Assembly: GCF_044324875.1 (NCBI RefSeq)
Contig: NZ_CP172185.1
Source of the DNA: Escherichia coli
GTDB lineage: Bacteria; Pseudomonadota; Gammaproteobacteria; Enterobacterales; Enterobacteriaceae
Reading direction: 5' to 3' (one strand)
Length of the DNA: 64,000 bases
Shown here: in pieces, positions 60,905 to 63,224 of the stretch
Layout of the letters: every line of letters begins with the position of its first letter
How positions within the stretch are numbered: position 1 is the stretch's first letter
Made by a program: the position numbers and the translations under genes
The notes under the pieces: generated by a model
What the model was told of the DNA's origin: nothing
Database searches by the model: none
What the model saw: the letters and a program-made list of their open reading frames with translations, nothing else

Positions 60905-61165
60905 AGTGAACCCGCTTATTCTCAGGGCGGGGCGAAATTCCCCACCGGCGGTAAATCAACTCAGTTGAAAGCCCGCGAGCGCTTTGGGTGCGAACTCAAA
61001 GGACAGCAGATCCGGTGTAATTCCGGGGCCGACGGTTAGAGTCCGGATGGGAGAGAGTAACGATTCTGTCGGGCATGGACCCGCTCACGTTATTTTGGCT
61101 ATATGCCGCCACTCCTAAGACTGCCCTGATTCTGGTAACCATAATTTTAGTGAGGTTTTTTTACC
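60905..61165 (+). promoter_or_regulatory. FMN riboswitch (RFN element) leader of ribB
   Basis: Conserved RFN segments AGGGCGGGGCGAAATTCCCCACCGGCGGTAAA ... AGCCCGCGAGCGC ... GGACAGCAGATCCGGTGTAATTCCGGGGCCGACGGTTAGAGTCCGGATGGGAGAGAG upstream of ribB ATG. Confidence 0.8.
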
Positions 61166-61819
61166 ATGAATCAGACGCTACTTTCCTCTTTTGGTACGCC
61201 TTTCGAACGTGTTGAAAATGCACTGGCTGCGCTGCGTGAAGGACGCGGTGTAATGGTGCTTGATGATGAAGACCGTGAAAACGAAGGCGATATGATCTTC
61301 CCGGCAGAAACCATGACCGTTGAGCAGATGGCGCTGACCATTCGCCACGGTAGCGGTATTGTTTGCCTGTGCATTACTGAAGATCGCCGTAAACAACTCG
61401 ATCTGCCAATGATGGTAGAAAATAACACCAGCGCCTATGGCACCGGTTTTACCGTGACCATTGAAGCGGCTGAAGGTGTGACTACCGGTGTTTCTGCCGC
61501 TGACCGTATTACGACCGTTCGCGCAGCGATTGCCGATGGCGCAAAACCTTCTGATCTGAATCGCCCGGGCCACGTTTTCCCACTTCGCGCGCAGGCAGGT
61601 GGAGTACTGACGCGTGGCGGTCATACTGAAGCAACTATTGATCTAATGACGCTGGCAGGCTTTAAACCGGCTGGTGTGCTGTGTGAGCTGACTAATGACG
61701 ATGGCACGATGGCGCGTGCACCAGAGTGCATTGAGTTTGCCAATAAACACAATATGGCGCTCGTGACTATTGAAGATCTGGTGGCATACCGTCAGGCACA
61801 TGAGCGTAAAGCCAGCTGA
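61166..61819 (+). CDS. ribB: 3,4-dihydroxy-2-butanone-4-phosphate synthase RibB
   Basis: Track ORF 217 aa [42 protein letters not shown]... Confidence 0.9.
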
Positions 61820-61851
61820 AAACCGCTGCTTAATTTACTGCCTTAATCAAG

Positions 61852-61886
61852 AAACCGAAGTTGTAGCAGGCTTCGGTTTTTATTTT
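61852..61886 (+). terminator. Intrinsic terminator after ribB
   Basis: AACCGAAG-TTGTAGCAGG-CTTCGGTT followed by TTTTATTTTT. Confidence 0.65.
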
Positions 61887-62080
61887 TCCCTGCTATGCAA
61901 GATGTTAATTCCGCTTCTCTTTCTATGAGAAAATTTCATTAATATCAGGCATTCTTTTTCATTATGATCAAAATCATATAATTGTTCCGTTATTATGCGA
62001 CCATATGAATATATCCGAAAAAGGATATGTGAAATTTATGCGCTAAATGTTTAGTATTGTTAAATATTAAGGGTAAAAGG

Positions 62081-62251
62081 ATGTTTATCGCCTGGTACTG
62101 GATTGTATTGATTGCTCTGGTTGTGGTGGGTTATTTCCTGCATTTAAAACGTTATTGTCGGGCGTTTCGCCAGGATAGAGACGCACTGCTTGAAGCGCGG
62201 AACAAATACTTAAACAGTACGAGAGAAGAGACAGCCGAAAAGGTAGAATAA
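62081..62251 (+). CDS. Candidate small single-TM membrane protein (56 aa)
   Basis: Track ORF 62057..62251 begins at TTG; ATG at 62081 gives MFIAWYWIVLIALVVVGYFLHLKRYCRAFRQDRDALLEARNKYLNSTREETAEKVE; AT-rich upstream region; own hairpin terminator 62269-62310. Confidence 0.4.
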   Translation: MFIAWYWIVLIALVVVGYFLHLKRYCRAFRQDRDALLEARNKYLNSTREETAEKVE

Positions 62252-62308
62252 GACTTTAGTGAAGCTGACAGAAGTTGTCCATGCGCTGGACAACTTCTGA
62301 TGTTGCTT

Positions 62309-63082
62309 TTAACCAATTCCCGCCGTTTGTAGCAGCACTAAACTGAATCCCATCACTGACATTCCACATAGTACGCCATAGCTGGGGTTATTATTAGGGT
62401 CAATCTCTTTGGCGAGCGGCATTAATTCATCAACCGAGAGCGCCACCATAATTCCTGCAACCGCCGCCATGATTGCCGCCATGACCACCGGGGAAATCAT
62501 GCTACCGAGGATTAACCACGCCAGCACACCACCAAGAATTTCTGCCAGTCCAGAAATCCCCGCCCACAGAATCGCGGTACGTTTCGATCCTGTTGCAGCG
62601 TAAACCGGCCCTGCAACGGCCAGACCTTCAGGAATATTGTGCAACGCTACGGCCAGGGCGATACCAAATCCCAGCTCCAGGTTGCTGCTCGCCGTGACAA
62701 AGGTGGCAATCCCTTCCGGGAAGTTATGCAGACTGATACCGAGAGTGAGCAGAATGGCTGTGCGCTTGATCGATTTTGGCAACGGCTGCACCGATTTTTG
62801 CATTAAATCCTGCGGATGCGCATGTGGCAACATGCGGTCCAGGCCAAAATAGCCAAGCAGACCGAAGATAAACATTCCATAACCCAACACAGGCGACATT
62901 CCTTCAGCTGCTAGTGCGGCAGGAAGCATTTCCATTAATGAGATGAGCAACATGATCCCCGCCGCAAATCCTAGCGAAAACGCCAGTAAGCGGTTCGAGG
63001 GTTTTTGCCCGAGAACGCCGAGAAACGCGCCAATAAACGTGGCTGCCCCCGCCAGTATGGTCAGAATGAGAGGTACTGACAT
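62309..63082 (-). CDS. zupT: Zinc transporter ZupT (ZIP family)
   Basis: Track ORF 62309..63124; start at ATG 63080-63082 ([29 protein letters not shown]...), 257 aa. Confidence 0.85.
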
Positions 63083-63224
63083 CGACAACTCCTTATAAAT
63101 CTTCACCTTCAGGCAGATCGTCAAAATAACTGATGATCATCATCATTGTTATCCGGGTTCTTACTCCGCCGAACAAGCGTATTGTGAGGATATCAAAATG
63201 ACACCTTTAGTTAAGGATATCATC

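What the first reader, a model, noticed from the sequence alone, without database searches (positions are those of the whole stretch)
62057..62310. Unannotated-looking small membrane ORF with its own terminator between ribB and zupT
An ATG at 62081 opens a 56-codon frame: one hydrophobic helix (FIAWYWIVLIALVVVGYFL) then a charged tail. It follows a ~190-bp AT-rich stretch and is closed by a hairpin (62269-62299) that also lies just past the convergent zupT stop. Small single-TM proteins are easily missed in annotation; I cannot assign a name with confidence.
Basis: seen in the sequence. Interest (0 to 1): 0.3.

Follow-up and report, generated by a model that had tools for sequence, protein, structure and literature searches.

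The report
Known small membrane protein gene yqiD
The small ORF between ribB and zupT is real and protein-coding, but it is the already named and experimentally validated E. coli gene yqiD, a 56-residue single-helix membrane protein whose function is still unknown.

Summary
An ATG at 62081 opens a 56-codon frame (62081-62251) with one hydrophobic helix and a charged tail. It follows a 191-bp AT-rich stretch (29% GC) and is followed by a 13-bp hairpin (62269-62299) just past the convergent zupT stop. The ORF is not unannotated. It is yqiD (b4756), named 'protein YqiD' in RefSeq and identical to UniProt YQID_ECOLI. My own checks agree. The frame is intact in 38 of 38 species-representative genomes from seven Enterobacteriaceae genus labels. 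pN/pS is 0.09 for codons 1-43, and 5425 of 5426 complete E. coli genomes carry the locus. The function is unknown. I infer an N-out/C-in inner-membrane protein whose conserved juxtamembrane helix (KRYCRAFRQDRDALLEAR) binds a partner. ZupT, always the convergent neighbour, is only a candidate. Three side observations are not in the papers I found: an ATGAT-N4-ATCAT palindrome conserved upstream of yqiD and again in the zupT-ygiD promoter region; two deeply divergent yqiD alleles in E. coli; and inconsistent naming of the second allele.

The parts
61850..61881 (+). ribB intrinsic terminator (13-pair stem followed by a T-run). It separates ribB from yqiD.
   Evidence: Terminator scan. Fold of -16 kcal/mol. 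There is a weak sub-threshold Rfam STnc240 hit at 61818-61888 (29.1 bits against a gathering score of 55).
61890..62080 (+). AT-rich yqiD promoter and leader region (28.8% GC). The part from 61963 to the ATG is conserved across Escherichia, Citrobacter and Salmonella.
   Evidence: composition; alignment A3. The leader has no significant RNA structure (z = -1.75). The transcription start was not mapped here.
61963..61978 (.). Perfect 16-bp palindrome TATGAT-CAAA-ATCATA (core ATGAT-N4-ATCAT). It is a candidate operator for an unidentified transcription factor and contains a GATC.
   Evidence: Its centre is 108-111 nt upstream of the ATG in the window and in all 26 Escherichia, Citrobacter, Salmonella and Intestinirhabdus species-representative loci, and at -68 in 'Enterobacter sp. 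kpr-6'. The exact pattern is expected 0.11 times in the window by chance and was found twice. That it binds a protein is inference.
61977..61982 (+). Candidate -10 hexamer TATAAT overlapping the right arm of the palindrome (inferred, not mapped).
   Evidence: Read directly from the sequence. It is only partly conserved in other genera. The consensus scan instead proposed TTAATA-18-TATGAT at 61939-61968.
62069..62073 (+). Shine-Dalgarno sequence AAGGG, 7 nt upstream of the start codon.
   Evidence: It is conserved as AAGGG or GGAGG-type sequences in all loci.
62081..62251 (+). yqiD coding sequence (56 codons plus stop): transmembrane helix at residues 2-20, conserved juxtamembrane helix at 21-43, variable tail at 44-56.
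   Evidence: RefSeq annotation at the same coordinates. Identical to YQID_ECOLI. Published detection. Conservation and selection. AlphaFold2 gives a single helix, residues 2-55.
62269..62299 (.). 13-bp GC-containing hairpin in the 57-nt gap between the yqiD and zupT stop codons. It is a probable bidirectional terminator.
   Evidence: It is kept by compensatory changes in Escherichia, Salmonella and many Citrobacter (-26 to -33 kcal/mol) but is weak or absent where the gap is 9-28 nt. The T-run meets the scan's criterion on the + strand only.
62309..63082 (-). zupT (ZIP-family metal transporter), the invariant convergent neighbour of yqiD.
   Evidence: It is adjacent in 38 of 38 loci, with a gap of -17 to +75 nt.
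63133..63146 (.). Second copy of the ATGAT-N4-ATCAT palindrome, in the zupT-ygiD divergent promoter region (centre 57 nt upstream of the zupT ATG).
   Evidence: It is conserved as GATGATCwTCATCATG in Escherichia, Citrobacter, Salmonella, 'Enterobacter sp. kpr-6' and some Kosakonia. Reg-Seq found no transcription-factor site in the zupT promoter.

Best explanation
Identity (shown): window 62081-62251 (+) is yqiD (b4756), a known and validated gene for a 56-residue small protein. It lies downstream of the ribB terminator, presumably with its own promoter in the AT-rich region (the transcription start was not mapped). It is closed by a hairpin shared with convergent zupT. Architecture (inferred from sequence and from the positive-inside rule, which is established knowledge): a single-pass inner-membrane protein. 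Essentially no N-terminus is exposed to the periplasm. A 19-residue transmembrane helix spans residues 2-20. A cytoplasmic, basic juxtamembrane helix (H21-K42) is the most strongly constrained part of the protein, and the C-terminal tail evolves quickly. Mechanism (inferred, not shown): like other bacterial small membrane proteins, YqiD most likely has no enzymatic activity. It probably binds a larger inner-membrane protein through its transmembrane helix and the conserved KRYCRAFRQDRDALLEAR helix, and changes that partner's activity or stability. By genomic linkage the leading candidate partner is the metal importer ZupT. I put about 0.95 on the identity and architecture, about 0.5 on 'modulator of a larger membrane protein', and about 0.15-0.2 on ZupT being that partner.
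For: Identity: the RefSeq CDS 'yqiD: protein YqiD' has the same start and stop. The sequence is identical to YQID_ECOLI. VanOrsdel et al. 2018 (PMC6001520) list this sequence between zupT and ribB. They detected it by immunoblot after chromosomal SPA-tagging and noted it was positive in a tetracycline ribosome-profiling screen. Coding: the frame is intact (56-74 codons) in 38 of 38 species-representative genomes. pN/pS is 0.09 for codons 1-43 and 0.07 for codons 22-43, against 0.58 for the tail. 5425 of 5426 complete E. coli genomes carry the locus. Architecture: hydropathy is 2.43 over 19 residues, with 5 K/R against 1 D/E just after the helix. AlphaFold2 gives one helix at residues 2-55, with pLDDT 84-88 in the transmembrane part. 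Separate transcription unit: a ribB terminator lies at 61850-61881, followed by a conserved leader. The yqiD upstream region was active in a published reporter-fusion test of cis variants. Link to ZupT: zupT is the convergent neighbour within -17 to +75 nt in all 38 loci, while the upstream neighbour varies between ribB, assT-dsbL-dsbI and fimbrial genes. The same palindrome is conserved upstream of yqiD and in the zupT-ygiD promoter region.
Against: No experiment on localisation, partners or phenotype was found in 20 papers containing 'YqiD'; most of them concern an unrelated Bacillus gene of the same name. The adjacency to zupT could simply be inherited synteny. The two genes are so close that rearrangements can only fall upstream of yqiD. 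ZIP transporters occur widely, while this family is restricted to a subset of Enterobacteriaceae. Reg-Seq classified the zupT promoter as constitutive with no transcription-factor site, which argues against co-regulation through the shared palindrome under standard conditions. His21 is not conserved in distant members and Cys26 is not universal, so a conserved metal-ligand role is unlikely. No Pfam or NCBIfam model reached its cut-off, and no solved structure is related.
Confidence: 0.9

Rival explanations
1. YqiD is a dedicated accessory or regulatory subunit of the ZupT metal importer. On this reading the two genes form a functional module controlled by one unidentified transcription factor that binds ATGAT-N4-ATCAT.
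For: yqiD and zupT are convergent neighbours in 38 of 38 loci, while the upstream neighbour changes. The palindrome is conserved at a fixed distance upstream of yqiD and also in the zupT-ygiD intergenic region. Those are the only two exact matches in 64 kb, where 0.11 are expected. From general knowledge, there is precedent for small membrane proteins that modulate metal transporters: MgtS with MgtA and PitA, MntS with MntP, and KdpF with KdpABC.
Against: Reg-Seq found only an RNAP site in the zupT promoter, and zupT is reported to be constitutive. The second palindrome could serve ygiD rather than zupT. The upstream palindrome is absent from Kosakonia and Phytobacter, although yqiD and zupT remain adjacent there. 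There are no interaction or phenotype data. Synteny alone is weak evidence for genes this tightly packed.
Confidence: 0.17
2. The main role of the locus is at the RNA level. Convergent transcription of yqiD into the 3' end of zupT, or the shared hairpin, tunes zupT expression, and the peptide is secondary.
For: The two stop codons are 57 nt apart and share one hairpin. In several genera the 3' ends of the genes abut or overlap: a 17-nt overlap in L052, and overlaps in L009 and L016.
Against: There is strong purifying selection on the amino-acid sequence, with pN/pS 0.07-0.09 while synonymous sites are near saturation. That cannot be explained by an RNA-only role. The protein is detected in cells. 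The hairpin is not universally conserved.
Confidence: 0.04
3. The ORF is a chance open frame in an AT-rich intergenic region and is not a gene.
For: It is short (56 codons). No Pfam or NCBIfam model reaches its cut-off. The mechanical ORF list shows many short frames nearby.
Against: It is annotated and experimentally detected. It is intact in 38 of 38 species-level loci across seven genus labels. pN/pS is 0.09. The Shine-Dalgarno sequence is conserved.
Confidence: 0.01
4. The protein starts at the upstream in-frame TTG (62057), giving a 64-residue product with a basic N-terminal extension (MLNIKGKR...). That would reverse the predicted topology.
For: The mechanical ORF runs from TTG 62057, and the finding's coordinates begin there.
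Against: RefSeq and the 2018 paper use the ATG. The AAGGG Shine-Dalgarno sequence lies inside the proposed extension, at the correct distance from the ATG. One-base indels between the TTG and the ATG in Salmonella and C. amalonaticus break that frame. All homologues begin MFIAW/MFISW.
Confidence: 0.02

Closest known systems
YqiD of E. coli K-12 (b4756; UniProt YQID_ECOLI; some sources label homologues 'DUF4051')
   Same: The 56-residue sequence is identical. The gene has the same position and orientation between ribB and zupT and the same start codon.
   Different: Nothing at the protein level. The window's DNA is 98.6% identical to K-12 over this interval and 99.8% identical to strain M7424.
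Small inner-membrane proteins that modulate transporters (MgtS, MntS, AcrZ, KdpF, SgrT) - functional analogy only, cited from general knowledge
   Same: It is under 60 residues, has a single hydrophobic helix, has its own small transcription unit, and is encoded next to a transporter gene.
   Different: There is no sequence similarity to any of them. No interaction, regulation or phenotype has been shown for YqiD. The neighbouring transporter, ZupT, is reported to be constitutive, whereas those examples are stress-induced.
FNR/CRP-type operators (FNR consensus TTGAT-N4-ATCAA) - applies to the upstream palindrome only
   Same: The geometry is the same: 5-bp inverted half-sites separated by 4 bp. 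The core TGAT-N4-ATCA matches, giving 8 of 10 consensus positions.
   Different: The outermost position is A/T rather than T/A on both arms. That difference is conserved at both sites and in all genera. From general knowledge, this position helps to distinguish FNR sites from CRP sites, so the binding factor may be neither.

Membership tests
YqiD (E. coli b4756) orthologue group | Sequence identity to the reference protein YQID_ECOLI | tested here: met
   The exact-sequence look-up returns 'Protein YqiD ... RepID=YQID_ECOLI'. The sequence is identical to the one printed in PMC6001520.
YqiD (E. coli b4756) orthologue group | Same genomic position and annotated CDS boundaries (between ribB and zupT, convergent with zupT) | tested here: met
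   The RefSeq CDS at L001 2762-2932 and L002 1762-1932 maps to window 62081-62251.
YqiD (E. coli b4756) orthologue group | The protein is actually synthesised | not testable with these tools
   Taken from the literature: SPA-tag immunoblot and a tetracycline ribosome-profiling signal. My indirect support is pN/pS of 0.09 and a conserved Shine-Dalgarno sequence.
Pfam DUF4051 (a name some sources give to homologues) | Match to the family HMM above its gathering score | tested here: not met
   The Pfam-A copy searched returned no DUF4051 hit. The best hits (DUF2621 at 19.8 bits against 27.7, and others) are all below their cut-offs. The label appears only in names given by sources. The model may be absent from this Pfam copy.
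Single-pass (bitopic) inner-membrane small proteins | One hydrophobic segment long enough to span the membrane | tested here: met
   Residues 2-20 have a mean Kyte-Doolittle value of 2.43. AlphaFold2 predicts a helix with pLDDT 84-88. Family members in the alignments begin with the same kind of hydrophobic segment.
Single-pass (bitopic) inner-membrane small proteins | Charge bias that fixes the topology (positive-inside rule) | tested here: met
   There are no charged residues before the helix, and 5 K/R against 1 D/E in the 13 residues after it. R24 and R30 are invariant or nearly invariant.
Single-pass (bitopic) inner-membrane small proteins | Experimental membrane localisation | not testable with these tools
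   No fractionation or topology data were found in the literature searched.
Transporter-modulating small proteins (MgtS/MntS/AcrZ type) | Physical interaction with, or functional effect on, a transporter | not testable with these tools
   Only genomic adjacency to zupT is available. I do not file YqiD as a member of this class.
Transporter-modulating small proteins (MgtS/MntS/AcrZ type) | Co-regulation with the transporter or its stress regulon | tested here: inconclusive
   A shared conserved palindrome lies at yqiD and in the zupT-ygiD region, but Reg-Seq reports no transcription-factor site in the zupT promoter.
Rho-independent (intrinsic) terminator | Stable GC-containing stem-loop followed immediately by a U-tract | tested here: inconclusive
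   The stem has 13 pairs (6 G-C) and -24.2 kcal/mol. On the + strand the tail ATGTTGCTTT passes the scan's criterion of 5 T in 8. On the - strand (for zupT) there is no T-run. The hairpin is missing in lineages with a short intergenic gap.

The most novel reading that the evidence does not exclude
YqiD, ZupT and perhaps YgiD form a previously unrecognised module. An unidentified transcription factor would bind the conserved ATGAT-N4-ATCAT palindromes on both sides of zupT. The small membrane protein YqiD would bind ZupT through its invariant juxtamembrane helix to tune metal import under a condition not covered by standard laboratory growth. The two deeply divergent yqiD tail alleles in E. coli would then reflect selection on that regulatory interface.
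Probability: 0.1. Interest if true: 0.55.

Novelty: already known. Interest (0 to 1): 0.1.

Why it matters
As a gene-finding result it adds nothing new. The gene was found, named and validated in 2018 and is annotated in RefSeq. It is useful mainly as a calibration point: the first-stage reader recognised a genuine small membrane protein gene from raw sequence alone. Two things remain of interest. YqiD still has no known function, even though it is present in essentially every E. coli genome and its juxtamembrane helix is under strong constraint. The side observations (shared palindrome, invariant pairing with zupT, two alleles) also give concrete, inexpensive experiments for assigning a function.

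Tried and rejected
- **Domain searches.** Pfam and NCBIfam gave only sub-threshold hits (DUF2621, DUF4381, DUF6526, NF038143), which I treat as noise from the transmembrane and coiled regions.
- **Solved structures.** The profile search found only weak matches to GapR/UPF0335 (E about 0.02), rejected as chance similarity between helices.
- **Rfam.** Only the FMN riboswitch upstream of ribB was found. The STnc240, mir-999 and RT-2 hits are far below their gathering scores.
- **Structured leader.** The yqiD leader has no significant fold (z = -1.75), so I dropped the riboregulator idea.
- **Metal-ligand idea.** I considered His21 and Cys26 (C-H-x4-C in Citrobacter and Salmonella) as metal ligands. 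His21 is replaced in distant members and Cys26 is not universal, so I downgraded it.
- **ZupT::YqiD fusion protein (P0137).** It turned out to be a local inversion or an assembly chimera on one 2-kb contig, because the ZupT C-terminus follows on the opposite strand. I rejected it as Rosetta-stone evidence.
- **Other chimeric or frameshifted hits.** P0117, P0118 and P0119 come from very short contigs and I treat them as assembly errors.
- **The 'ElaB and YqiD' mention in PMC5525287.** It sits in a discussion of tail-anchored proteins and appears to be a slip for another protein, probably YqjD, so it is not evidence about this gene.
- **Supplementary tables.** Those of the 2018 paper and of the NAD-RNA paper were not held, so I obtained no transcription start or expression class for yqiD.
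- **PhoP-box and ArcA-box readings.** I considered these for the conserved TGTTTA-N4-TGTTAA repeat in the leader. The repeat period is 10 bp rather than the canonical 11 bp, so I did not pursue them (read; the consensus sequences are from general knowledge).
- **AlphaFold complex with ZupT.** I did not attempt it, because the tool returns no interface metrics.

Full report
**1. The observation**

- An ATG at 62081 opens a 56-codon frame that ends at 62251.
- The product is MFIAWYWIVLIALVVVGYFLHLKRYCRAFRQDRDALLEARNKYLNSTREETAEKVE.
- Residues 2-20 form a 19-residue hydrophobic segment with a mean Kyte-Doolittle value of 2.43. The next 13 residues carry five K/R and one D/E.
- The 191 bp before the ATG are 28.8% GC, against 52.1% for the window.
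- An AAGGG Shine-Dalgarno sequence lies 7 nt upstream of the ATG.
- A 13-pair hairpin at 62269-62299 folds at -24.2 kcal/mol on the + strand (z = -4.56) and -26.6 kcal/mol on the - strand (z = -6.63). It sits in the 57-nt gap between the yqiD stop and the convergent zupT stop at 62309-62311.
- ribB has its own terminator at 61850-61881, so the small ORF is a separate unit.

**2. What it is**

The ORF is not unannotated.
- A megablast of 61820-62320 against 5,426 complete E. coli genomes matched 4,432 of them. The feature under the match is 'yqiD: protein YqiD'.
- In K-12 W3110 and in the nearest strain (M7424, 99.8% identical) the annotated CDS is 171 nt and maps to window 62081-62251.
- The protein sequence is identical to UniProt YQID_ECOLI.
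- VanOrsdel et al. 2018 (Proteomics 18:1700064, PMC6001520) list yqiD between zupT and ribB with this 56-residue sequence. It is one of 36 small proteins they detected by immunoblot after inserting an SPA tag at the 3' end of the chromosomal ORF.
- They also note that YqiD was an unidentified positive in an earlier tetracycline-inhibited ribosome-profiling screen.
- The locus number is b4756.

I ran the third, frame conservation, myself.

**3. Independent conservation test**

- Word-indexed and full-HMM protein searches found a very small family: 108 clusters at 90% identity, and 25 representatives at 50% identity among 1.84 billion proteins.
- A scan of one genome per species returned 38 loci. 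They carry the genus labels Escherichia, Citrobacter, Salmonella, Intestinirhabdus, Kosakonia, Phytobacter and one 'Enterobacter sp.'.
- In all 38 the frame is intact (56-74 codons) with an ATG or GTG start. zupT lies convergent, from 17 nt of overlap to 75 nt away.
- S. bongori also has the full 58-codon frame. Its deposited annotation is truncated to 37 residues.
- Nei-Gojobori estimates give dN/dS of about 0.03-0.17 for codons 1-43 in pairs where dS could be estimated. The exception is the nearly identical S. enterica/S. bongori pair, at 0.24. Synonymous sites are often saturated.
- Over 136 Citrobacter, Salmonella and Intestinirhabdus pairs, pN/pS is 0.09 for codons 1-43. It is 0.14 for the transmembrane part, 0.07 for residues 22-43 and 0.58 for the tail.
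- The invariant or nearly invariant positions cluster in W5 and in K/R23, R24, A28, R30, D/E32, R33 and A35.
- One-base indels just upstream of the ATG in Salmonella and C. amalonaticus rule out the TTG-62057 extension.

**4. Architecture and likely mode of action**

- AlphaFold2 with the family alignment gives a single continuous helix, residues 2-55. pLDDT is 84-88 in the membrane segment and 53-69 in the rest.
- With no charge before the helix and a dense basic cluster after it, the positive-inside rule predicts N-out/C-in topology.
- The juxtamembrane helix KRYCRAFRQDRDALLEAR would then lie at the cytoplasmic face. This is the most constrained part of the protein, which suggests a specific binding surface rather than a passive anchor.
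- No Pfam or NCBIfam model reaches its cut-off, and no solved structure is related.
- I found no published localisation, interaction or phenotype.
- By analogy with other bacterial small membrane proteins, my working mechanism is that YqiD binds and modulates a larger inner-membrane protein. This step is entirely inferred.

**5. The ZupT lead and its limits**

- yqiD always travels with zupT, while its upstream neighbour changes. The neighbour is ribB in E. coli K-12, C. freundii, Kosakonia and Phytobacter. It is assT-dsbL-dsbI in Salmonella, C. rodentium and C. amalonaticus. It is fimbrial genes in E. albertii and in some E. coli.
- A perfect palindrome, TATGAT-CAAA-ATCATA (61963-61978), is conserved with its centre 108-111 nt upstream of the ATG in every Escherichia, Citrobacter, Salmonella and Intestinirhabdus locus.
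- The only other exact ATGAT-N4-ATCAT in the 64-kb window, where 0.11 are expected by chance, is at 63133-63146 in the zupT-ygiD divergent promoter region. That site is also conserved across genera.
- The motif matches the FNR consensus at 8 of 10 positions, but it has a conserved A at the outermost position of each arm.
- Several points count against a functional link:
  - The genes are so tightly packed that rearrangements can only fall upstream of yqiD.
  - Reg-Seq classified the zupT promoter as (0,0), meaning an RNAP site only, and zupT is reported to be constitutive.
  - Kosakonia and Phytobacter lack the yqiD-side palindrome.
  - His21 and Cys26, which I considered as metal ligands, are not conserved in distant members.
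- I therefore give the ZupT-partner idea about 0.15-0.2.

**6. The hairpin**

It is maintained by compensatory substitutions in Escherichia, Salmonella and many Citrobacter. Examples are AAG/CTT to ATG/CAT, and GTCC/GGAC to GCC/GGC. Energies there are -26 to -33 kcal/mol. It is weak or absent in lineages where the two stop codons are 9-28 nt apart or the genes overlap. It is best read as a bidirectional terminator in the Escherichia, Salmonella and Citrobacter freundii-group lineages, not as a universal part of the system.

**7. Other published context**

- A 2025 preprint lists yqiD among four genes whose cis-regulatory variants had consistent effects across GWAS, promoter modelling and reporter fusions. 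This confirms that the upstream region is an active and naturally variable promoter.
- In enteroaggregative E. coli 042, a 'DUF4051 family' gene (orf3334) was one of three of the 23 genes tested by qRT-PCR that were more highly expressed in an aar mutant. E. coli has one such locus per genome, so this is probably yqiD. I did not verify the accession.

**8. Verdict**

- Novelty: already known.
- Interest is low for the finding as stated.
- The residual interest lies in the side observations: the palindrome pair, the invariant pairing with zupT, and the two E. coli alleles. The alleles are sharply bounded at about 62095-62330. 989 genomes carry the second allele, labelled only 'hypothetical protein'.

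Noticed in passing
window 61963-61978 and 63133-63146: The palindrome ATGAT-N4-ATCAT occurs exactly twice in 64 kb, where 0.11 are expected. One copy is upstream of yqiD and one is in the zupT-ygiD divergent promoter region. Both are conserved across genera. It resembles an FNR/CRP-type operator but has a conserved A at the outer position. No regulator is known, and Reg-Seq saw no transcription-factor site in the zupT promoter.
   Followed up: partly
window 62095-62330; L003 3119-3360: E. coli carries two deeply divergent yqiD alleles, about 66% identical at the protein level, with dS of about 1.5 over codons 1-43. 4,432 complete genomes have the K-12 type and 989 have the other. The divergence is sharply bounded by 100%-identical DNA on both sides, and zupT encodes the same protein accession in both backgrounds. 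This suggests an old recombinational replacement.
   Followed up: partly
L003 3119-3289 and hits H31-H33: RefSeq names the K-12-type allele 'yqiD: protein YqiD' but labels the divergent allele only 'hypothetical protein'. That is an annotation inconsistency affecting about 18% of complete E. coli genomes.
   Followed up: yes
L004, L008, L011, L012 (assT-dsbL-dsbI upstream); L003, L013 (fimbrial genes upstream, dsbI-dsbL beyond ygiD): The interval just upstream of the yqiD promoter is a rearrangement or insertion hotspot. The neighbour there is ribB, the arylsulfate sulfotransferase-DsbL-DsbI island, or a fimbrial operon, depending on lineage. yqiD-zupT-ygiD stays intact throughout.
   Followed up: partly
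L042, L046-L056, first ~30 nt upstream of zupT: Kosakonia, Phytobacter and 'Enterobacter sp. kpr-6' carry a Fur-box-like sequence (TTATGATAATCATTCTCATTAATG, 15 of 19 matches to the Fur consensus by eye) directly upstream of zupT. It is absent in E. coli, which suggests that metal regulation of zupT differs between lineages.
   Followed up: no
L018 1499-1876: A 125-residue ORF fuses the first 70 residues of ZupT to a YqiD-like C-terminus. The ZupT C-terminus follows on the opposite strand. This is therefore a local inversion between zupT and yqiD, or an assembly chimera, on a single 2-kb contig.
   Followed up: yes
L011 2938-3114 (Salmonella bongori N268-08): The deposited annotation truncates the yqiD homologue to 37 residues (A464_3222). 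The full 58-codon frame with a Shine-Dalgarno sequence is present.
   Followed up: yes
window 60914-61062 and 61818-61888: An FMN riboswitch lies upstream of ribB (Rfam RF00050, 120.9 bits). A weak sub-threshold match to the Salmonella sRNA family STnc240 (29.1 bits against a gathering score of 55) covers the ribB terminator.
   Followed up: no
window 62040-62062 (yqiD leader): There is a conserved direct repeat, TGTTTA-N4-TGTTAA, about 25-40 nt upstream of the ATG. It resembles PhoP or ArcA half-site repeats, but the period is 10 bp rather than 11 bp. Its significance is unknown.
   Followed up: no
literature: EAEC 042 orf3334 (CBG36162.1): A 'DUF4051 family' gene was one of three of the 23 genes tested by qRT-PCR that were more highly expressed in an aar (AraC negative regulator) mutant. 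It is probably yqiD, and this hints at H-NS-linked control of its AT-rich promoter. I did not verify the accession.
   Followed up: partly
P0117, P0118, P0119 (short ENA/Logan contigs): These are chimeric or frameshifted YqiD-like predictions, for example a UbiK N-terminus joined to a YqiD C-terminus on a 739-bp contig. They are most likely assembly artefacts in metagenome-derived protein sets.
   Followed up: partly
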